This document shows, piece after piece, positions 29,307-56,426 of a stretch of 64,000 nt of DNA. A model generated the notes under the pieces. That model was not told the origin of the DNA. It made no database searches and saw nothing but the letters and a program-made list of their open reading frames with translations. Made by a program: the position numbers and the translations under genes. Numbering within the stretch: position 1 is the stretch's first letter; every line of letters starts with the position of its first letter. Source of the stretch: Promethearchaeota archaeon (GTDB taxonomy: Archaea; Asgardarchaeota; Lokiarchaeia; Sigyniarchaeales; SOKP01); contig JBHLNF010000001.1 of assembly GCA_048937405.1 (NCBI GenBank), positions 352,001-416,000 of the forward strand, written 5' to 3'.

Positions 29307-29687
29307 ATGATTCCTTCAAAGAAAATAATCCCTCTATTAAGAAAGATACTCAAAGGCGATCAAGGTATAAAAGCAATTTATATAACAGATGAATCTGGAG
29401 AGATAATTGCTAATACAATCAACGAGTCTTTTCAATTAAATGATATAGAATTTTTTGCTAAAAAAAGTGTTATAATCTATAAAGGATTGAAAAAGATTGA
29501 AAATTCACAAATTATTGGAGATTTTAATTATCTTACAGCAGAATTCTATGAAAATGGTAGAATCACTTATATTTCTTTGAAAAACCATGTTGTAGTAATA
29601 ATAGGTGAATATTGTCCTAATGTAGGGATGATACGTGTCATAATAAGAAGTGTCCGCGAGGAATTAACTAAAATTCTTTATGGGTAA
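29307..29687 (+). CDS. Roadblock/LC7-like protein
   Basis: 126 aa; GIKAIYITDESGEIIA...EFYENGRI...NVGMIR. Confidence 0.7.
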   Translation: MIPSKKIIPLLRKILKGDQGIKAIYITDESGEIIANTINESFQLNDIEFFAKKSVIIYKGLKKIENSQIIGDFNYLTAEFYENGRITYISLKNHVVVIIGEYCPNVGMIRVIIRSVREELTKILYG

Positions 29688-46520: not shown

Positions 46521-47123
46521 TTAATTTTCAACTGATTTTGTTAATCCTTTAGCTTTAGCTATTTTGTACTTACAAACATCTCCACATCCATTTTCAAGTG
46601 TAGGATCGTGATCCTCTGAATCAAAGTCAATTGGTAGAATAAAATCTTTTGCAATTTCAAGCACAACTTCCATTGAAACACTACTTATTTGAGGATTATT
46701 TCGAAAATGGTAATTAATTATATTATCTAGCTTTTGAAGTTTTGAACTTGCAAGTAAGATACAAACGTTGTGTTCTCCTGAAAGCTTAAATGCGTTTAAC
46801 ATAAAGGGACAGTGCTTAGCCATGTCTATAATTTCTTCTGGATTCTTAGTTTTAATCTCAACAGTAGCAAGATTTAAATCTACTTTCTTAAAATTAATAC
46901 CAGGTTGGAATTGCAAAATTCCATTCTTTTCTAACTTCTTGATTCTCATACCCACAGTTGGTTGCGATCTATTAATTTTAGAAGCAATCTCTGTATGTGT
47001 AAGGCTAGGATTATCCTGAACTAAAGATATAATTTGCCTATCAACCTCATCGAGCTTCAATTTATCAGATATCATAATTATTAATTCATTTTTTTTTCTC
47101 TTATAACTAAATATAATATTCAC
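46521..47123 (-). CDS. Lrp/AsnC transcription regulator
   Basis: LDEVDRQII...THTEIASKINRSQPTVGMRIKKLE; LSGEHN. Confidence 0.9.
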   Translation of the reverse strand: MNIIFSYKRKKNELIIMISDKLKLDEVDRQIISLVQDNPSLTHTEIASKINRSQPTVGMRIKKLEKNGILQFQPGINFKKVDLNLATVEIKTKNPEEIIDMAKHCPFMLNAFKLSGEHNVCILLASSKLQKLDNIINYHFRNNPQISSVSMEVVLEIAKDFILPIDFDSEDHDPTLENGCGDVCKYKIAKAKGLTKSVEN

Positions 47124-48870: not shown

Positions 48871-49383
48871 CTAAAACTCACAGCTCCCGCAACAAGAATT
48901 CTCTAATTCAATCTTTGAAAAATCGAAGTTTAAATCTATTGGTAAAACAAAATCATCTGCTACATCTTCAATAATATCCATATGAACATTTGAGATTTCT
49001 GGATTTCCTCGAAGATGATGATTAACTACATGATCGAGATCCTTTAATGATAAACCTGCTATTATAATGCTGATATTGTTATTTCCACTCAATCTAAACG
49101 CGGTGAGCATAAAAGGACAGCGCCTTACTATCTTAAAAATCTTTCTGGGATTCCTACTTAGAATATCAACACGGGCAAACTGCAAATCAGCAACTTTAAT
49201 ATTTATACCTGCTTGATATTTCAAAATTCCTAATTTCTCTAATTTTTTTACCCGCATTCCGATTGTGGGCTGACTTCTATTCACAAACCCTGCAATTTCA
49301 GTATGAGTAAGATTTGGTTCTTTTTGGATTAATTCCATTATTTTACAATCAATATCATCAATTCCAATTCTTTCACTTAACAT
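48871..49383 (-). CDS. Lrp/AsnC transcription regulator
   Basis: IDDIDCKI...THTEIA..VNRSQPTIGMRVKKLE; LSGNNN. Confidence 0.9.
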   Translation of the reverse strand: MLSERIGIDDIDCKIMELIQKEPNLTHTEIAGFVNRSQPTIGMRVKKLEKLGILKYQAGINIKVADLQFARVDILSRNPRKIFKIVRRCPFMLTAFRLSGNNNISIIIAGLSLKDLDHVVNHHLRGNPEISNVHMDIIEDVADDFVLPIDLNFDFSKIELENSCCGSCEF

Positions 49384-49584: not shown

Positions 49585-49920
49585 ATGAGTGAATTTAGAA
49601 AGTATATAATTGAATTCTTAAAAGTATTATCAAATTCTACAAGACTGGAAATTTTAGATATATTAAAAAATAGTGAGAAGAATTCGTCTGAAATTGAATA
49701 TTTACTAGGAAGATCTCAATCAACGATTTCTAAACATCTTAATATGCTCCTCGAGAATAATCTTATAGATTATGAGAGAAAAGATAATATAAAATATTAT
49801 AAAATACAAAATGCAGATGTGTTTACTTTACTTACAAATATAAATTCAATAGTAGGAAATATCTATAAAGAAAAGTTTAAGGATATTAGAGACGTAGATA
49901 TACGTGATACACTATCTTAA
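49585..49920 (+). CDS. ArsR/SmtB transcription regulator
   Basis: LKVLSNSTRLEIL...SQSTISKHL..L. Confidence 0.9.
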   Translation: MSEFRKYIIEFLKVLSNSTRLEILDILKNSEKNSSEIEYLLGRSQSTISKHLNMLLENNLIDYERKDNIKYYKIQNADVFTLLTNINSIVGNIYKEKFKDIRDVDIRDTLS

Positions 49921-49962: not shown

Positions 49963-50511
49963 ATGAATGTTTTAAAAACCAATAAATCTAAAGAAGAATC
50001 CAAAAAAATTATCTTGATGGGATTGGATAATAGTGGAAAAACTTCAATAGTGAATTGTTTAAAGGGAAATAAGCGCATTTCTGCTTTTAATAATCCAAAA
50101 CCTACGAAAGGTCTTGAGATCCAACAATTTGAAGCCTTAGATACAAAGTATGCTATTTGGGATTTTGGTGGCCAAGCATCATACCTAGATGACTATTTTA
50201 ATGATTTCAGCAATCATTTAAAAGGAACAACAAAAATTATTTATGTAATTGATATTCAAGATGTTAGTCGTTATGACCTTGCACTTCAATATCTAAAAAA
50301 GGTAATCGATTCAATTGATACTTCTAATAAAATTAGTTTTTCTGTTTTTCTCCATAAATTTGATCCTGATTTAGTATTTGATCACAGCTTCAATGAACTC
50401 GTAATTAATGACTTTATCAAAAAAATTAAAGAGATTATCCCTTTAGATTTTATATATTCAATAAATAGAACGACAATTTATGCCATATTTGAAAAATTTA
50501 AAATCAAATAA
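49963..50511 (+). CDS. Small GTPase, Rag/Arf-like
   Basis: G1 GLDNSGKT, G2 PT, G3 WDFGGQ, G4 HKFD, G5 TTIY. Confidence 0.9.
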   Translation: MNVLKTNKSKEESKKIILMGLDNSGKTSIVNCLKGNKRISAFNNPKPTKGLEIQQFEALDTKYAIWDFGGQASYLDDYFNDFSNHLKGTTKIIYVIDIQDVSRYDLALQYLKKVIDSIDTSNKISFSVFLHKFDPDLVFDHSFNELVINDFIKKIKEIIPLDFIYSINRTTIYAIFEKFKIK

Positions 50512-50622
50512 ATATTTTTAATTTTTTTTCTTGGCTATTTTTAATTAGATACAATTTTTTAATAATTATAAAAAAAATAATAAATATTAACAAAGTATTG
50601 CATAGAACCATATTTAAATAAG

Positions 50623-52560
50623 GTGATATTTTTACAAGCACTAAGAAACGAAGATTCACTCAGCTTGCAAACTGGATCATCAATAATTATCTTTATTATT
50701 ATATTATTCTTAATTTATCTAACAAATTTTTATAGCTTTCTATTGTTCCATACCATAGCAGAATTATTTAGTATAGCTATAGCATTTGGAGTTTTTGCTA
50801 TAGGTTGGAATACCAGAAAAAACATAGAAAACTCTCTATTCTTGATTCTAGGGGTTAGTTTAGCCTTTATAGGATTATTAGATCTTGTTCATACTTTAGC
50901 ATATAAAGGATTGGATATATTTAGAGGTTATGATGCCAATTTGCCTACTCAATTATGGATTGCTGCAAGATATCTTCAAGCAGGTTCCTTTTTTATAGCA
51001 GTAATGTTATTTAATAAAAAAATTAATCCAAATCAATTAGTTATTTTTTATACGATTGTAGTTTGTGTTTTACTTTTATTGATTTTCTCAGAGATTTTTC
51101 CAGTCTGTTATATCGAAGGACATGGACTTACGCCATTTAAAATTGTCAGTGAATACGTAATTATCGCTATTTTATTAGGAGTGATAATAAAATTGTATAG
51201 ATTGAGGAAAGAATTTGACCCACTGATGTTCTATCTTATAGTTTTTTCAAATATTTCAACGATTATTGCAGAATTAGCTTTTACTTTTTATATTGGTGTC
51301 ACTGATGTCTCCAATTTAATTGGACACATTTTTAAAATCCTCTCTTTTTACCTTATATACTTAGCAATTATCCAAAAGGGTCTTGAAGATCCCCTTAATA
51401 CATTATTTTCCAAACTAAAACATAGCGAAGAAATTCTTGCTACAAAAGCGGAAGATCTTGAAAGCGCATATTCCCTTATAAAAGAATCGGAAGAAAAATT
51501 CAGACTTACTTTTGAAAATGCTTCAGATGCGTTAATATGGGCGGATGCAAATACTGGAACCATATTAAATTGCAATCATGCAGCAGAAATTCTTCTAGAA
51601 CGTAATAAAGAGGAAATTATTGGGATGGATCAAACATATTTACATCCAACTGAAAAAAGGGAGATTTATAAGAAAATGTTTAGAGATCGCGTAGAATCGG
51701 AAGAACTCTATTCAAATGAAGCAGAAGTAATTACCAAATCCGGAAAAATTATCCCGGTTACAATCTCAGCATCAAATATAGTAATTAGTGGAGAACTGAT
51801 AATCCAAGGAATATTTCATGATATAAGAGAAAGAAAAAAAGCTGAACAGAAATTGAAAAACTTGGTTTCAACAGTTTCTCATGAATTAAGAACTCCCTTG
51901 ACAGTATTAAATATGTCTATGGATCTTTATAAACAACAAAAAAATTCGATGACTCCTGAATTACAAAACAAAATTATCGAAACATGGGATAGAAACATAA
52001 CGCTTCTAAAAGATTTATCTGAAAATATCCTAAATATTTCAAGAATAGATGAAAAAAAGATTGAACTTGAATTGAATAAATTTAAACTACTGAATATAAT
52101 AATGGATATTGTAGTATTCTTAACACCATTTTGTAAACAAAAAAAAGTGAGAATAAATATCGATATTGATAAAAATATAGAGCTAAAAGGAGATATTAAA
52201 AGAATAGATCAAGTTTTCCGTATTATACTTGATAATGCTATTAAATATTCATATGAAAATACTACAATAGAAATTAATGCAATAGACAAATATAGAAGGA
52301 ATTTTGACTCTGCTAATAAAAGTGAGGGTATACTTATTCAATTTAAGAATTATGGTATAGGAATCAGTAAAGAGGATCTTCCTCATATCTTTGAAAGATT
52401 TTATCGTGCTTCCAATGCAGGAGAAATATCTGGAACGGGATTAGGATTATCAATAGCAAAGTCCATCGTCCAACTTCATCAAGGAGAAATATATATTGAA
52501 AGTGAATTAGGTAAAAGCACTACTTTTTCTATATTTTTTCCAAGGTTAAATAAAATATAA
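50623..52560 (+). CDS. Membrane sensor histidine kinase (MASE3-like + PAS + HisKA + HATPase)
   Basis: FHTIAELFS, DLVHTLAYKG, TQLWIAARY; PAS; SHELRTPL; DNAIKYS; FERFYR; GTGLGL. Confidence 0.92.
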   Translation: MIFLQALRNEDSLSLQTGSSIIIFIIILFLIYLTNFYSFLLFHTIAELFSIAIAFGVFAIGWNTRKNIENSLFLILGVSLAFIGLLDLVHTLAYKGLDIFRGYDANLPTQLWIAARYLQAGSFFIAVMLFNKKINPNQLVIFYTIVVCVLLLLIFSEIFPVCYIEGHGLTPFKIVSEYVIIAILLGVIIKLYRLRKEFDPLMFYLIVFSNISTIIAELAFTFYIGVTDVSNLIGHIFKILSFYLIYLAIIQKGLEDPLNTLFSKLKHSEEILATKAEDLESAYSLIKESEEKFRLTFENASDALIWADANTGTILNCNHAAEILLERNKEEIIGMDQTYLHPTEKREIYKKMFRDRVESEELYSNEAEVITKSGKIIPVTISASNIVISGELIIQGIFHDIRERKKAEQKLKNLVSTVSHELRTPLTVLNMSMDLYKQQKNSMTPELQNKIIETWDRNITLLKDLSENILNISRIDEKKIELELNKFKLLNIIMDIVVFLTPFCKQKKVRINIDIDKNIELKGDIKRIDQVFRIILDNAIKYSYENTTIEINAIDKYRRNFDSANKSEGILIQFKNYGIGISKEDLPHIFERFYRASNAGEISGTGLGLSIAKSIVQLHQGEIYIESELGKSTTFSIFFPRLNKI

Positions 52561-52621
52561 AACAAATTATTAATATAATTACAATTAGTATTTTTCCAAT
52601 TAGAGTTGTAGGCGAACTAAT

Positions 52622-53563
52622 ATGCCACCTGTAACAAAACTAATGATACTGGTAGTTGATGATAATAAAGACATCTTATTCAACCTAAGAATTCAATTGG
52701 AAAGCAAAGGATATGAAGTTGAAACAGCATTAAATGGTAAAAATGCGTTAAATGTCCTATCGAAGTTAAAGAATCCTCCTGATTTAATCATTAGCGATAT
52801 TATGATGCCTCAAATGGACGGTTATGAGTTTTTTTCTACGGTTTCAAATAATCCTCAATGGAGTCGTATTCCTTTTTTATTCCTAACCGCGAAATCTACT
52901 CCTGAAGATATAAGATTTGGTAAAATGTTGGGGATTGACGATTACATAACAAAACCTTTTAATAATGAAGATTTATTTGCAACTATCGCAGGAAAGATTG
53001 CTAGACATAAAAAATCTAATCTTATAGATAATGAGATAAAGAAATTATTATCCTCTTTAAATATCAAAACACAACCTTCAATTCCAGCTGGAGATCACAC
53101 ATCCACATGCTTATTTTTAGTATATTGGGATGATGTTTTAGGTCCTATAATAAAGACTCATTATCCTTCCGATAAAGATGTTTCTTTTTCATTACGTTCA
53201 ATAGGTGTTCAGTTATTCCAAGCAGTAATTTCAATTTATGGCCATACTAAAATCACAAGAGCTCAAGGATTTTTGTTAAATATTGAAAATATAAATCAAA
53301 AAGGTTATATCTTTTTTGATTCTTATCCAGATGAAACTGAAAGACATGGAGAAAAACAATACATGATATCTGTTATCTCTCCAAATATTACCTATTTTGA
53401 TTCGCTTGAAATTAAACTTATATTGAAAGAAATTTCTGAAAAAATTAAAAATAAACAAGATTGGGAAATCAAGGAATACTGGGAAAAAGTTATAAGCATA
53501 TTATCAAAAGACTTATTGTTGTTGAATACTCAAAATAGCTCTACATCTAACAAAAATATATAA
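52622..53563 (+). CDS. Response regulator receiver fused to longin/uDENN-like domain
   Basis: REC: VVDD, ISDIMMP, FLTA, KPF; C-terminal VYWDDVLGPIIKTHYP ... DETERHGEKQYMISVIS. Confidence 0.8.
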   Translation: MPPVTKLMILVVDDNKDILFNLRIQLESKGYEVETALNGKNALNVLSKLKNPPDLIISDIMMPQMDGYEFFSTVSNNPQWSRIPFLFLTAKSTPEDIRFGKMLGIDDYITKPFNNEDLFATIAGKIARHKKSNLIDNEIKKLLSSLNIKTQPSIPAGDHTSTCLFLVYWDDVLGPIIKTHYPSDKDVSFSLRSIGVQLFQAVISIYGHTKITRAQGFLLNIENINQKGYIFFDSYPDETERHGEKQYMISVISPNITYFDSLEIKLILKEISEKIKNKQDWEIKEYWEKVISILSKDLLLLNTQNSSTSNKNI

Positions 53564-53704: not shown

Positions 53705-54031
53705 ATGGTGAATAATGTGTCAGAAGTAAAAGAAGAAGAAAAGTTGTTAAGATCCCCAGAAGTATGTTCTTGGGCTGATGACGAAGAAAATGTTTATAAA
53801 ATTGAAATTCAATTACCTGGAGTAGAAAAAGATTCAATTAAGCTTAAGATGCACGATGATAGTTTTTTTATTAAAGGAGAGACCGAAGATACAGTATACG
53901 TAGGTTCGTACGGTTTATGTTGTCCTATAAATCCTGAAGAAGCAAAAGCAAATTATAAAAATGGATTATTAAAAATTGAGGTCCCTTTTAAAGAACCTGA
54001 ATTTCATAGTATAGATATAAATATTGAATAA
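53705..54031 (+). CDS. Small heat shock protein Hsp20
   Basis: LPGVEKDSI, AKANYKNGLLKIEVP. Confidence 0.9.
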   Translation: MVNNVSEVKEEEKLLRSPEVCSWADDEENVYKIEIQLPGVEKDSIKLKMHDDSFFIKGETEDTVYVGSYGLCCPINPEEAKANYKNGLLKIEVPFKEPEFHSIDINIE

Positions 54032-54088
54032 ATTACTTTTTTTTCTCTATTTTTTAAATTTAAATGATATTTAGAAATAAAAGTCTAT

Positions 54089-55018
54089 TTAATATTCGAT
54101 ATTCGTTTCTTTAACATAATCAAAAGCTGAATAAGCAGCTATAACACCTTCAGATACTCCTGTAATAGCTTGCTTAAAAGGAGCGTCTGCTACATCTCCC
54201 GCGGCAAAGATTCCCTTAACATTTGTTTCTGATTTCCTGTTAATCAAGATTTCCCCATTTTCATTTGTTTCTACCCCAATTTTCTTAGCTAGATCAGAAT
54301 TAGGAATTGAACCAATATCGATAAATACCCCATCAACTTCCAATTGTTTCCCATTATCAAAATATACCGATCTTACGTTGCCATCCCCTATAATTTCAAT
54401 AACATTGGTTTTATAAATAATTTCAATTATGTCATTTTCTAGAACTCGTTTCTTATTTATAGGTTCTGCTCTAATATCATCTCCGCGATAGATAATATAT
54501 ACTTTTTTTGTATTTTGAGCAAGAAAGAGAGCTTCTTTTGCAGCTGAGTCACTTCCTCCTATTACACAGACTACTTTATCTTTGTAAAAGGGGCCGTCGC
54601 ATGTAGCACAATATGAAACACCTCGTCCTGCAAACTCCTCTTCACCAGGTATACCCAACTTTTTTCTTTCAGATCCAGTAGCAATACAAATACTATATGC
54701 TTTAAATTTTTGGAAAAAGGATTGTAATACAAAATAATCATCCTGTTTTTCAATATTTCGAATTTCATCTGAGATATATGGAATATTTAAAGAATTCATA
54801 TGATCTTTAAACATATCCATTAAACCCTGACCGCTAATACTAGTTATACCTGGATAATTTTCAACGAGATGAGTTGTTGCGATTAATCCTCCAAAAGTCT
54901 TCCCTATGATTAGTACATCCATGGCAAATCGAGCAGCATAGATTGCACATCCAATTGCAGTTGGTCCACCCCCTAAGACGATTAGATCATAGGTTTTTTC
55001 TAAATTAATGTTCTCCAT
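54089..55018 (-). CDS. trxB: Thioredoxin reductase
   Basis: GGGP, VENYPG, IATG, GVSYCATCDG, ETNVKGIFAAGD, QAIT; start moved to ATG 55018. Confidence 0.9.
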   Translation of the reverse strand: MENINLEKTYDLIVLGGGPTAIGCAIYAARFAMDVLIIGKTFGGLIATTHLVENYPGITSISGQGLMDMFKDHMNSLNIPYISDEIRNIEKQDDYFVLQSFFQKFKAYSICIATGSERKKLGIPGEEEFAGRGVSYCATCDGPFYKDKVVCVIGGSDSAAKEALFLAQNTKKVYIIYRGDDIRAEPINKKRVLENDIIEIIYKTNVIEIIGDGNVRSVYFDNGKQLEVDGVFIDIGSIPNSDLAKKIGVETNENGEILINRKSETNVKGIFAAGDVADAPFKQAITGVSEGVIAAYSAFDYVKETNIEY

Positions 55019-55019
55019 A

Positions 55020-55703
55020 TCAATATTGAACACGTATATTACCTCCAATTAAAGCCCTTAATATTTCATTTGGTCCAACCATTCCAACTAAGGTCTTCTG
55101 ATCATTTATTATAGTATAAGGTACACCAGCAGCATCATAATATTGACCAATATCAGGATTTGCCATGATATCAATTATTACAGTTCTAATTTTTCCCTCT
55201 GAAGCAATCGCGAAAGAATTACTAATTGTAATTACCTGAGGGCAATAGGGACAAGTTTCTGTCATCATAATTTTTATAGTTGATGGTTGGATTCTTTCTA
55301 GATTTTGCTTTATTGTAGCTTCATAATAATTGGGAGTTCCAGCAAAGTTAAATATAGCTTGAATAAAAGGTTGAATTTCTCCTCCTTTTGGGGCTGCTAA
55401 ATATCTAATAATCTCACGCCCATTATTATCTATAAAAAGAATTGTTGGTACTCGATTAATATCATACTTTTTTGCAAAATCTGGATTATCATCTATAGAT
55501 AATTCTTCTATAGTTAACATACCATTTGAATTCTCTTCATAAACCCGTAATAAAGCCATAAATTCCCTACAATCCATACAGGCTCTTATTTGAGTCCCAT
55601 CTGATCGTGTTCCTTGTGAAGTGAAGACTTTAAGTGTAACAGGCTTTTTTAATTTAGCCATTTCTCGTCTAATAATTTCTTTATATCGATCGTCTGAAGA
55701 CAT
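55020..55703 (-). CDS. Protein disulfide oxidoreductase (two thioredoxin folds)
   Basis: CMDC and CPYC with cis-Pro loops VP. Confidence 0.85.
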   Translation of the reverse strand: MSSDDRYKEIIRREMAKLKKPVTLKVFTSQGTRSDGTQIRACMDCREFMALLRVYEENSNGMLTIEELSIDDNPDFAKKYDINRVPTILFIDNNGREIIRYLAAPKGGEIQPFIQAIFNFAGTPNYYEATIKQNLERIQPSTIKIMMTETCPYCPQVITISNSFAIASEGKIRTVIIDIMANPDIGQYYDAAGVPYTIINDQKTLVGMVGPNEILRALIGGNIRVQY

Positions 55704-55721
55704 CTTTAAAATTCACCTGTT

Positions 55722-56426
55722 TTATGCATACATTCCTCCAAAATCTCTTTCGCCTTTAGTGAGTTTATCTAATAAATCTTGAGGTGTAAACATACCATAT
55801 ATATGATCCTTCTCATTAATAACTGTGTGAGGAACCCCTTGAACTTGATATTTCATACCGAGATCTGGATTCAAATTAACATCAATTACTTCCGCTGAAA
55901 TCTTTCCCTTAGAAACTATGGCAAATAGAGTTAGAACAGGTACCGTTGCTGGACAATATGGACAAGTTGGAGTTATAAAAATTTTCATCTTTGACTTATC
56001 TATTTTTTTCAAATGAGTAAGGATTTGATCTGCATAATATGGCCTTACTCCTGAAAAATATTGTATACTATTCAGAAATGGTACAAATTCAGAACCTGTT
56101 GGATGTGCTAAATATCGAATAATTTCTCTCTCATTCTGATCAACAAATAATATAGCGGGGATCTTATTTACATTAAATTTATTTGCCTCCTCCTCGTTTT
56201 CTTCAATGGAGATCTCTTCTACTTCTAATTTTCCATTAGAATATTCCTCTAAAATCTTTAATAGTTCAAAACTACCTTCACAAGCCATACATTTTCTTAG
56301 TTTTGATCCATCTTCTTGAGTTCTGAAATCTGTAAATAGTTTTAACACTACTTTATCCTTTAATTTAGCCATTTCTCTTTTAATATTATCTATTTCATTT
56401 TGAGAAAATATCACATAAACACCCAT
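55722..56426 (-). CDS. Protein disulfide oxidoreductase (two thioredoxin folds)
   Basis: CMAC and CPYC; paralog of adjacent gene. Confidence 0.85.
   Translation of the reverse strand: MGVYVIFSQNEIDNIKREMAKLKDKVVLKLFTDFRTQEDGSKLRKCMACEGSFELLKILEEYSNGKLEVEEISIEENEEEANKFNVNKIPAILFVDQNEREIIRYLAHPTGSEFVPFLNSIQYFSGVRPYYADQILTHLKKIDKSKMKIFITPTCPYCPATVPVLTLFAIVSKGKISAEVIDVNLNPDLGMKYQVQGVPHTVINEKDHIYGMFTPQDLLDKLTKGERDFGGMYA

What the first reader, a model, noticed from the sequence alone, without database searches (positions are those of the whole stretch)
49963..53563. Two-component system apparently wired to a Rag-like GTPase through a REC-longin fusion with a folliculin-type Arg motif
Seen: consecutive co-oriented genes encode a small GTPase with Rag-type G4/G5 (HKFD, TTIY), a membrane PAS histidine kinase, and a receiver. 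The receiver's output domain starts WDDVLGP...HYP (longin/uDENN strand-turn) and contains D-ETE-R-HGEKQ-Y-M-I. Known (recalled): folliculin has [13 protein letters not shown] in its longin domain, where the Arg is the GAP finger for RagC/D; NPRL2 uses a longin Arg on RagA/B. D, R, Y and I align without gaps. Inference: His-Asp phosphorelay switches a GAP-like longin domain on a Rag-like GTPase. This would be a prokaryotic-to-eukaryotic signalling hybrid resembling an ancestral nutrient-sensing circuit. The GTPase has no roadblock domain; a free roadblock gene is at 29307.
Basis: partly seen in the sequence, partly recalled or inferred. Interest (0 to 1): 0.85.

Follow-up and report, generated by a model that had tools for sequence, protein, structure and literature searches.

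The report
Kinase-controlled longin regulator beside Rag-like GTPase
An Asgard archaeon keeps a bacterial-style sensor kinase and response regulator in one conserved gene cassette with a Rag-like small GTPase, and the regulator's output is a folliculin/SMCR8-type longin domain of the kind that switches such GTPases off in eukaryotes; the fusion is already published, but the fixed GTPase partner gives a defined pair to test.

Summary
Window 49963-53563 encodes a 182-aa Rag/Arf-like GTPase with no roadblock domain, a MASE3-PAS histidine kinase, and a receiver (REC) fused to a 150-aa domain with no Pfam match.

- It carries W-D-x3-G-P and an Arg in the beta4-beta5 loop, the signatures of eukaryotic longin GAPs.
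- Linkage to Rag-like GTPases recurs in different gene orders, in a paralogous cluster of the same genome, and in GTPase-longin and GTPase-longin-kinase fusions.
- A predicted complex of two longins and one GTPase scored 0.67, against 0.00 for the best control. It places the WD/GP loop and R241 on the P-loop and both switches. This may reflect the model's memory of solved complexes.

No binding or enzyme data exist. The Arg is present in only 47 of 69 family representatives, and Pfam's Folliculin model fails.

The idea is not new. Liu et al. (2020) reported NPRL2-like longin fused to two-component domains in Asgard archaea. A 2025 paper reported the GP and Arg motifs in Asgard longins. This scan has already found the same cassette in other genomes.

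I found no published description of the fixed GTPase partner. Most likely mechanism: a phosphorylation-controlled, probably homodimeric, longin GAP. Interest is moderate.

The parts
49585..49920 (+). ArsR-family winged-helix regulator, first gene of the conserved cassette, ending 42 bp before the GTPase gene
   Evidence: Pfam HTH_5 1.4e-12. It sits directly upstream of the GTPase in every orthologous cassette examined.
49963..50511 (+). Rag/Arf-like small GTPase, 182 aa, G domain only. P-loop GLDNSGKT, T48, D67-x-G-G-Q71, H131-K-F-D134, T170-T-I-Y173.
   Evidence: Pfam Arf 2.9e-20 and Gtr1_RagA 1.8e-18. The closest solved structure is 8yl2_A, named by its depositors a RagA-like GTPase from Lokiarchaeota, E 1.2e-23.
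50623..52560 (+). Membrane sensor histidine kinase: MASE3 (35-257), PAS (292-403), HisKA (411-477), HATPase_c (523-641)
   Evidence: Pfam. NCBIfam MASE3_PAS_HK 2.4e-120, 403 bits, below that model's cut-off of 560.
52622..53563 (+). Response regulator, 313 aa: REC plus a long helix plus a longin output domain
   Evidence: Full-length AF2 model pLDDT 88.4.
52646..52987 (+). Receiver domain (residues 9-122). D14, phospho-acceptor D59 and K111 are conserved.
   Evidence: Pfam Response_reg 7.9e-27. D14, D59 and K111 are invariant in 18 homologues and at least 90% conserved in 78.
52964..53056 (+). REC helix alpha5 extended to a 30-residue helix (residues 115-145). A low-confidence linker (146-162) follows.
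   Evidence: DSSP on AF2 model m82e17b7ff3b7.
53108..53539 (+). Longin domain (residues 163-306), beta-beta-alpha-beta-beta-beta-alpha-alpha
53126..53146 (+). W169-D170-D-V-L-G174-P175 motif at the beta1-beta2 turn. The spacing equals that of C9orf72 W33-D34...G38-P39.
   Evidence: Sequence. Conservation W 65/69, G 64/69, P 61/69. GP and WD motif definitions are in PMC12290439. The W33G/D34K mutant almost completely abolishes GAP activity of the C9orf72 complex toward ARF1. Residues 169-176 touch the GTPase P-loop and Q71 in the predicted complex.
53342..53344 (+). Codon of R241, the candidate arginine finger in the beta4-beta5 loop
   Evidence: Invariant in 18 close homologues and present in 47/69 representatives. 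The loop position comes from the model. SMCR8 R147 lies in the betaL4-betaL5 loop and corresponds to FLCN R164. R241 and H242 are at the interface in the predicted complex.
53705..54031 (+). HSP20 small heat-shock protein, a conserved downstream neighbour. Membership of the functional unit is not shown.
   Evidence: Pfam HSP20 1.2e-10. It follows the regulator in orthologous cassettes.

Best explanation
This is a two-component system whose output is regulation of a small GTPase rather than DNA binding.

Proposed chain of events (every mechanistic step is inferred):
1. The MASE3/PAS membrane kinase senses an unknown cue. The conserved HSP20, thioredoxin-reductase and thioredoxin-like neighbours hint at redox or proteotoxic stress.
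2. The kinase phosphorylates D59 of the receiver.
3. Phosphorylation changes the dimer state or geometry of the regulator through the extended alpha5 helix.
4. Two longin domains then form the platform that cups the cassette's Rag-like GTPase.
5. The WD-x3-GP loop contacts the P-loop and the catalytic Q71, and R241 from the beta4-beta5 loop reaches the nucleotide site. The regulator therefore most likely acts as a GAP, as FLCN does on RagC, NPRL2 on RagA and SMCR8-C9orf72 on Arf1.
6. One chain carries the C9orf72-type WD, the GP motif and the SMCR8/FLCN-type Arg. A homodimer could therefore do what eukaryotic heterodimers do.

What is shown here, by computation only: the domain architecture, the longin fold, the motifs and their conservation, the recurrent gene linkage and fusions, and a predicted complex that passes its controls.

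My odds: the regulator binds and regulates the neighbouring GTPase, about 0.6. The effect is Arg-finger GAP activity, about 0.35-0.4.
For: Fold:
- The model has longin topology at pLDDT 88.6.
- Atlas neighbours are Asgard clusters carrying PF11704 Folliculin or PF06218 NPR2, and eukaryotic SMCR8 at TM 0.70.

Motifs:
- WD-x3-GP and R241 are conserved.
- In 69 representatives they are co-conserved: 41 have both, 15 have neither, 13 have one only.
- The GP motif and the Arg finger are reported as the signature of GAP-type longins. The Arg lies in the same loop as SMCR8 R147 and FLCN R164.

Linkage:
- The ArsR-GTPase-kinase-regulator cassette is found in every orthologue examined, starting from either the regulator or the GTPase.
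- The most distant regulator orthologue (48% identity) is followed by three Rag-like GTPase genes in a different arrangement.
- A paralogous cluster in the same genome has the order kinase | REC-longin -> Rag-like GTPase.
- In another Asgard family, REC-longin or a longin-only gene (L048) is adjacent to GTPases that score best against Gtr1_RagA.
- Only 3.9% of this genome lies within 3 kb of such a GTPase.

Fusions:
- A Ras-family GTPase fused to this longin (P0055), and kinase-REC-longin hybrids.
- A 1129-aa protein in this genome combining an Arf-type GTPase, this longin (a partial match, profile positions 3-87 of 137), two PAS domains and a kinase ATPase domain.

Complex:
- ipSAE 0.67 (three runs: 0.67, 0.68, 0.66) against 0.00 for the best of 3 controls. 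That mark was reached by 58 of 80 solved complexes and 2 of 110 mismatched pairs.
- The runs agree in at least 90% of their contacts, and the partner's pLDDT is at least 79.
- The interface is longin residues 169-176, helix alpha1 and R241-H242, against GTPase D22-N23 (P-loop), residues 44-55 (switch I) and Q71-Y74 (switch II).

The receiver's phosphorylation residues are intact.
Against: - No biochemical, genetic or expression datum exists for any member.
- R241 is missing in 22 of 69 family representatives.
- Pfam Folliculin, NPR2 and DENN models do not match this protein. Only 1 of 69 members hits Folliculin, at E 0.0014. A profile search of PDB sequences found nothing. Homology to FLCN/NPRL2 therefore rests on fold and short motifs.
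- Most longin and roadblock platforms are GEFs or scaffolds, not GAPs.
- The complex prediction may be memory of the solved FLCN-RagC, GATOR1-Rag and C9orf72-SMCR8-ARF1 structures. It was also run outside its calibration (own alignments, ligands riding along). I could not inspect coordinates, so entry of the Arg into the nucleotide site is not shown.
- Several REC-longin loci have a kinase but no GTPase within 7 kb: L047 and L051-L053, plus the third paralogue in this genome.
- Within the orthologous cassette the whole neighbourhood is collinear, so that part of the synteny reflects kinship.
- The co-conservation count is not corrected for phylogeny.
Confidence: 0.5

Rival explanations
1. The longin dimer binds the Rag-like GTPase but is not a GAP. 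It could act as a GEF or nucleotide-state sensor, as TRAPP, Mon1-Ccz1, DENN or Ragulator platforms do. Or the direction could be reversed: the GTPase is the upstream switch that recruits or gates the regulator and kinase, as proposed for actinobacterial conservons (membrane kinase-like CvnA, roadblock CvnB, GTPase CvnD; from my own knowledge).
For: - The same linkage, fusion and complex evidence applies.
- The predicted contacts with the switch regions and the P-loop fit a GEF as well as a GAP.
- The Arg is absent from about a third of family representatives.
- A GTPase-longin-PAS-kinase fusion places the GTPase N-terminal to the kinase. That position is where an input would be expected.
Against: - The WD, GP and Arg signature is reported as specific to GAP longins and absent from GEF longins such as TRAPP and DENND proteins.
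- The best structural matches are the catalytic GAP subunit FLCN and yeast Lst4, a subunit of the yeast FLCN-FNIP-like complex.
- WD/GP and Arg are kept or lost together.
Confidence: 0.25
2. There is no direct regulator-GTPase contact. The longin domain is a general dimerisation or protein-binding output that acts on other targets, such as stress proteins, other GTPases encoded elsewhere, or the ArsR regulator. The gene linkage would then reflect co-regulation within a stress-response island.
For: - Several REC-longin loci lack a nearby GTPase.
- The cassette travels with HSP20, thioredoxin reductase and thioredoxin-like genes.
- A paralogue sits beside HSP70, DnaJ and ClpB.
- This longin also occurs fused to TPR, RsbRD_N and DUF1638 domains.
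- Tran et al. note that GTPase genes of the cultured Loki strain MK-D1 do not generally sit in operons with roadblock, longin or TRAPPC3 genes.
Against: - Linkage to Rag-like GTPases recurs in at least four different gene orders and in two kinds of fusion protein. The genomic background is 3.9%.
- The predicted complex passes all three controls.
Confidence: 0.15

Closest known systems
Asgard 'NPRL2-like longin' domains fused to two-component signalling domains (Liu et al., bioRxiv 10.1101/2020.10.19.343400, Fig. 5c)
   Same: The same kind of protein: a GAP-type longin joined to REC or kinase domains in Asgard archaea. The same reading: growth or stress control centred on two-component systems with 'eukaryotic' regulators.
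   Different: In the text I read, that work reports domain architectures only and says most such genes lack conserved neighbourhoods. It names no GTPase partner. Here the partner is a fixed, G-domain-only Rag-like GTPase in the cassette, with paralogous clusters and fusions pointing the same way.
Eukaryotic longin-domain GAP complexes: FLCN-FNIP2 (RagC/D), GATOR1 NPRL2-NPRL3 (RagA/B), C9orf72-SMCR8 (Arf1)
   Same: Longin fold. GP motif before beta2. Arg in the beta4-beta5 loop. WD motif with C9orf72 spacing. The target is a Rag/Arf-type GTPase. The predicted binding uses the paired alpha1 helices, the WD/GP loop and the Arg loop against switch I/II, as in the ARF1 complex.
   Different: - There is no DENN domain.
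- There is no second, non-catalytic longin subunit. One chain carries WD, GP and Arg, so a homodimer is implied.
- Control is by His-Asp phosphorylation rather than by nutrient-sensing scaffolds.
- The GTPase lacks the roadblock dimerisation domain.
- Pfam family models do not match.
- Activity is untested.
GP-motif / Arg-finger 'FLCN/SMCR8-type' longins of Asgard archaea (PMC12290439, Traffic 2025)
   Same: [quoted passage not shown] That paper asks whether ArfR or Rag/Gtr GTPases are their partners.
   Different: Neither that paper's text nor my term searches of it mention receiver fusions, kinases or gene neighbourhoods. The present family also has the C9orf72-type WD, and it offers a candidate answer: Rag-like GTPases.
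MglA-MglB-RomR polarity module of Myxococcus xanthus
   Same: A prokaryotic Ras-superfamily GTPase regulated by a dimeric platform of the roadblock/longin superfamily, with receiver-domain proteins feeding in.
   Different: - MglB is a roadblock protein. Roadblock has an N-terminal helix that longin lacks; longin instead places an extra C-terminal helix in that position.
- From my own knowledge, MglB supplies no Arg finger.
- The receiver (RomR) is a separate protein with a different output.
Actinobacterial conservons (CvnA-D)
   Same: An operon that couples a membrane histidine-kinase-like sensor, a roadblock/longin-superfamily protein and a small GTPase (from my own knowledge).
   Different: Conservons have a free roadblock protein and a DUF742 protein, and no receiver. 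Pfam finds neither in this cassette. Here the phosphorelay is complete (kinase plus REC) and the platform is a GAP-type longin.

Membership tests
GAP-type longin domains (FLCN / SMCR8 / NPRL2 class) | Longin fold: beta-beta-alpha-beta-beta-beta-alpha-alpha sandwich | tested here: met
GAP-type longin domains (FLCN / SMCR8 / NPRL2 class) | GP motif at the end of the beta1-beta2 loop (PMC12290439) | tested here: met
   G174-P175 lie between strands 163-170 and 174-181. G is present in 64/69 and P in 61/69 representatives.
GAP-type longin domains (FLCN / SMCR8 / NPRL2 class) | Catalytic Arg in the longin beta4-beta5 loop | tested here: met
   R241 lies between strands 226-236 and 244-253. It is invariant in 18 orthologues and present in 47/69 of the wider family. 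Catalysis itself is untested.
GAP-type longin domains (FLCN / SMCR8 / NPRL2 class) | Match to the curated sequence models (Pfam PF11704 Folliculin, PF06218 NPR2) | tested here: not met
   No hit for this protein at E up to 5. One of 69 members hits Folliculin at E 0.0014. A profile search against PDB sequences gave 0 hits.
GAP-type longin domains (FLCN / SMCR8 / NPRL2 class) | C-terminal DENN domain (FLCN, SMCR8) or NPRL2-specific C-terminal domain | tested here: not met
   The protein ends after longin helix alpha3. The yeast FLCN homologue Lst7 also has only the longin domain, so this feature is not universal.
GAP-type longin domains (FLCN / SMCR8 / NPRL2 class) | Works as a dimer of two longin domains that cups the GTPase | tested here: inconclusive
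   In the predicted 2:1 complex both copies touch the GTPase with the same elements. The longin-longin interface itself was not scored.
GAP-type longin domains (FLCN / SMCR8 / NPRL2 class) | Stimulates GTP hydrolysis by the target GTPase | not testable with these tools
   Needs biochemistry.
Rag/Gtr GTPases | G domain matching Gtr1_RagA, with HKxD G4 and T-(S/T)-I-(W/Y) G5 | tested here: met
   Gtr1_RagA 67.2 bits against a cut-off of 22, but Arf scores 72.9. HKFD and TTIY are conserved. The closest solved structure is a Loki RagA-like GTPase. The consensus forms of the Rag motifs are from my own knowledge.
Rag/Gtr GTPases | C-terminal roadblock domain that mediates Rag dimerisation | tested here: not met
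   The protein has 182 aa and ends about 9 residues after G5. The orthologues are also 173-188 aa.
Rag/Gtr GTPases | Placement in the RagGtr clade rather than ArfL or ArfR in a phylogeny with reference sets | not tested
The classes are defined in 10.1101/2024.02.28.582541.
Two-component response regulators | Receiver domain with acidic pocket, phospho-acceptor Asp and conserved Lys, beside a cognate histidine kinase | tested here: met
   Response_reg 7.9e-27. D14, D59 and K111 are conserved. The kinase gene ends 61 bp upstream, and a kinase is adjacent in nearly all loci.
Asgard longin / two-component fusions (Liu et al. 2020) | NPRL2/FLCN-like longin domain in one polypeptide with REC or kinase domains, in an Asgard genome | tested here: met
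   Architecture. Homologues are named Lokiarchaeota, Promethearchaeota or Odinarchaeota by their sources. 90 of 301 genomes sampled from the window's phylum have a match.
MglB / Roadblock-LC7 GAPs | Roadblock topology with an N-terminal helix | tested here: not met
Actinobacterial conservon | Separate roadblock (CvnB) and DUF742 (CvnC) genes in the operon | tested here: not met
   Pfam on all cassette genes shows neither.

The most novel reading that the evidence does not exclude
The cassette is a living example of a pre-eukaryotic longin-GAP / Rag-like GTPase switch. A homodimeric longin carries the WD, GP and Arg elements that eukaryotes later split between two subunits (C9orf72 and SMCR8; FLCN and FNIP). 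It is turned on by His-Asp phosphorylation and acts on a G-domain-only Rag-like GTPase. If so, Rag-type stress or nutrient signalling began as the output branch of a two-component system.
Probability: 0.3. Interest if true: 0.8.

Novelty: new member of a known kind. Interest (0 to 1): 0.58.

Why it matters
Eukaryotic nutrient signalling to mTORC1 runs through Rag GTPases that are switched by longin-domain GAPs (FLCN, GATOR1). How that module arose is an open question.

Asgard archaea have many orphan Rag/Arf-like GTPases and many longin proteins, but almost no assigned pairs. Tran et al. say that genome layout rarely helps. The 2025 longin-GAP survey asks outright which GTPase family partners the GP/Arg-type Asgard longins.

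This cassette names one small GTPase, one regulator and one kinase, all soluble or truncatable. It also supplies a built-in on/off handle (phosphorylation) and three motif mutants to make.

A positive assay would give the first prokaryotic longin GAP and an ancestral homodimeric form of the eukaryotic complexes.

The general idea is already in print, so the value lies in testability rather than in concept.

Tried and rejected
- Sequence searches for known families in the output domain led nowhere: Pfam and NCBIfam, a profile against PDB sequences (0 hits at E up to 10), and Pfam on all 69 family members (Folliculin 1/69, Afi1 1/69, the rest noise).
- A roadblock or MglB reading was rejected on topology and on lower Z.
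- A conservon reading was rejected as a membership because the cassette has no CvnB or CvnC equivalents.
- Expression: no RNA holder was listed for the cassette, so co-transcription could not be examined. I did not lay reads.
- The sigma-70 promoter and terminator scan was not used because it does not cover archaeal promoters.
- A literature search for 'Roadblock-Longin' with Lokiarchaeota found nothing. No paper describing the LokiRagO structure was found in the library. The Jansen & Hurley review is not held.
- I could not obtain residue-level structural alignments or coordinates. Equivalence of R241 with FLCN R164 therefore rests on loop position and local sequence pattern, not on a superposition.
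- I did not resolve whether the GTPase is RagGtr or ArfL in the published classification, because no reference set was available.
- REC-longin loci with no GTPase within 7 kb: L047, L051-L053 and L014. L050 and L054 also show none, but their contigs end nearby.

Full report
**What is there**

The window has about 28% G+C. Homologues of its genes are named Lokiarchaeota, Promethearchaeota or Odinarchaeota by their sources. Between 49585 and 54031, five co-oriented genes lie on the + strand with gaps of 42, 111, 61 and 141 bp:
- an ArsR-type regulator;
- a 182-aa small GTPase;
- a 645-aa MASE3-PAS-HisKA-HATPase_c kinase;
- a 313-aa response regulator;
- an HSP20.

The regulator has a complete receiver with D14, D59 and K111 conserved. 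About 150 further residues match no Pfam or NCBIfam model.

**The output domain is a longin of the GAP type**

An exhaustive HMMER search with residues 145-313 found 172 cluster representatives. An AF2 model built on 69 of them has pLDDT 88.6. Its element order is beta-beta-alpha-beta-beta-beta-alpha-alpha, which is the longin order and not the roadblock order.

Structure searches agree:
- Foldseek's significant hits are chains of the GATOR1, SEA, FLCN-FNIP2 and DENND10 (Commander) complexes.
- Next come yeast Lst4 (12.2), a Lokiarchaeal longin (11.5) and chain 7o2w_A of the C9orf72-SMCR8 complex (11.4).
- MglB, LAMTOR and other roadblock proteins follow at 7.6-7.9.
- The nearest ESM Atlas clusters are Asgard proteins partly carrying PF11704 (Folliculin) or PF06218 (NPR2), and eukaryotic SMCR8 at TM 0.70.

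Sequence profiles do not see the relationship. Only one of 69 members touches the Folliculin model, at E 0.0014, and a profile search of PDB sequences found nothing.

**The motifs**

[23 protein letters not shown] is FLCN 156-178, so the R of SLAR is Arg164.

In the model, R241 lies in the beta4-beta5 loop. Published work places SMCR8 Arg147 in the longin betaL4-betaL5 loop and equates it with FLCN Arg164.

A 2025 survey defines a GP motif at the beta1-beta2 turn as specific to the GAP longins FLCN, NPRL2, SMCR8 and C9orf72, and absent from GEF-type longins. It reports the GP motif together with the Arg in some Asgard longins.

This protein has G174-P175 at that turn. It also has W169-D170 five residues before the G, the spacing of C9orf72 W33-D34...G38-P39. 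The W33G/D34K mutant almost completely abolishes GAP activity of the C9orf72 complex toward ARF1. One chain therefore unites elements that the C9orf72-SMCR8 heterodimer divides between two subunits.

Across 69 representatives at 23-64% identity, W is kept in 65, G in 64, P in 61 and R in 47. WD/GP and R are kept or lost together: 41 have both, 15 have neither and 13 have one only. That count ignores phylogeny.

**Gene linkage**

Orthologous cassettes (ArsR, GTPase, MASE3 kinase, regulator, HSP20, then thioredoxin reductase and thioredoxin-like genes on the other strand) were found from every regulator orthologue and every GTPase orthologue I looked up, down to 56% identity. The whole neighbourhood is collinear there, so this alone shows kinship more than function.

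The informative cases are the rearranged ones:
- The most distant regulator orthologue (48% identity) is preceded by a kinase fragment and followed by three Rag-like GTPase genes.
- The same genome has a second cluster in the order kinase (opposite strand), REC-longin, 183-aa GTPase that scores best against Gtr1_RagA.
- In another Asgard family, REC-longin (or a longin-only gene in L048) is adjacent to 465-488-aa GTPases. The two of these that I scanned against Pfam score best against Gtr1_RagA.
- Divergent-strand and upstream arrangements also occur (L062, L064).

In this genome only 3.9% of bases lie within 3 kb of a GTPase of this type.

Fusions point the same way:
- a Ras-family GTPase fused to this longin, and kinase-REC-longin hybrids;
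- in this genome, a 1129-aa protein that joins an Arf-type GTPase, this longin (a partial match, profile positions 3-87 of 137), two PAS domains and a kinase ATPase domain. Open frames of similar length (about 1126-1148 aa) carry the same partial longin match in many related genomes.

Against this, several REC-longin loci have a kinase but no GTPase nearby, including the third paralogue in this genome, which sits beside HSP70, DnaJ, ClpB and a TFB.

The family was found in 90 of 301 genomes sampled from the window's phylum. It is concentrated in two families of that phylum, 59/68 and 21/21.

**Predicted complex**

I submitted two copies of the longin domain, one GTPase, GTP and Mg.
- The score was 0.67 (three runs: 0.67, 0.68, 0.66). 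The best of three controls scored 0.00.
- That mark was reached by 58 of 80 solved complexes and 2 of 110 mismatched pairs.
- The runs agree in at least 90% of their contacts, and the partner's pLDDT is at least 79.

Both longin copies touch the GTPase with residues 169-176 (WDDVLGPI), helix alpha1 and R241-H242. The GTPase side is D22-N23 of the P-loop, residues 44-55 (switch I) and Q71-Y74 (switch II). The tightest pairs are G174 with Q71 and D171/V172 with D22.

This mirrors the published ARF1 complex, in which the switches sit on the paired longin helices and the SMCR8 loop. That resemblance is also why the pass may be memory of solved complexes. The job was run outside its calibration, and I could not see coordinates. 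It supports binding and does not show it.

**Mechanism**

The full-length model (pLDDT 88.4) shows receiver helix alpha5 running on as a 30-residue helix (115-145). A low-confidence linker follows, then the longin.

I infer that phosphorylation of D59 by the neighbouring kinase changes regulator dimerisation. This would assemble or release a longin homodimer that cups the GTPase and most likely supplies R241 as a GAP finger.

The cue is unknown. The conserved HSP20, thioredoxin-reductase and thioredoxin-like neighbours, and the chaperone context of a paralogue, hint at stress.

The rival readings cannot be excluded without biochemistry:
- a GEF or scaffold role;
- reversed direction, with the GTPase upstream of the kinase, as in conservons;
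- no direct contact at all.

**Novelty**

Liu et al. [quoted passage not shown] They proposed that Asgard growth regulation is centred on two-component systems with eukaryote-like regulators. The GP and Arg signature in Asgard longins was published in 2025.

This scan has already met the same cassette in other genomes, with similar verdicts.

I did not find the following in print:
- the fixed pairing with a G-domain-only Rag-like GTPase;
- the recurrence of that pairing in rearranged clusters and fusions;
- the combination of WD, GP and Arg in one chain.

I therefore file this as a new member of a known kind. It is well supported as an observation and moderately interesting, because it turns an open question into a three-protein experiment.

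Noticed in passing
own genome G000 contig C7:275665-277256 (locus L013: 4866-8260): A second, differently arranged cluster in the same genome. A histidine kinase lies on the opposite strand. A 297-aa REC-longin follows, then a 183-aa GTPase whose best Pfam match is Gtr1_RagA (2.6e-20).
   Followed up: partly
own genome G000 contig C10 (locus L015: 6262-9651, - strand): A 1129-aa single protein joins an Arf-type GTPase domain (154-313), the N-terminal half of this longin (about 330-410), two PAS domains and a kinase ATPase domain. Open frames of about 1126-1148 aa with the same partial longin match occur in many related genomes.
   Followed up: partly
own genome G000 contig C7:607970-608872 (locus L014: 219-8411): A third REC-longin paralogue has no nearby GTPase or kinase. 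It sits directly after HSP70, DnaJ, ClpB and a TFIIB-type factor. A 138-aa ORF with no Pfam match follows it.
   Followed up: partly
window 53705-56426: The cassette is always followed by HSP20. On the other strand come thioredoxin reductase and two or three thioredoxin-fold genes. The same set is seen in all orthologous loci, a hint that the kinase responds to redox or proteotoxic stress.
   Followed up: partly
loci L055-L061 and L063 (other Asgard genomes): A separate class of 619-692-aa proteins has this longin at the N-terminus, and the two I scanned against Pfam (L056, L060) carry TPR repeats after it. In one genome two such genes lie in tandem (L060). None of these loci has a GTPase, receiver or kinase match within the fetched flanks (up to about 7 kb).
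   Followed up: partly
proteins P0028, P0037, P0055, P0167 (metagenomic family members): The same longin is also fused to RsbRD_N, to DUF1638, to a Ras-family GTPase and to a kinase ATPase domain. It therefore behaves as a mobile output or adaptor module.
   Followed up: partly
window 29307-29687 (+): This 126-aa ORF has a sub-threshold match to MAPKK1_Int (LAMTOR3/MP1, a roadblock protein), E 1.6e-4. It lies 20 kb from the cassette and is not linked to it.
   Followed up: partly
window 46521-47123 (-) and 48871-49383 (-): Two paralogous winged-helix regulators of about 170-200 aa lie upstream of the cassette. Their homologues are called AsnC/HTH_24-type in the related loci. They have Cys-rich C-terminal ends and are conserved in position in those loci.
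   Followed up: no
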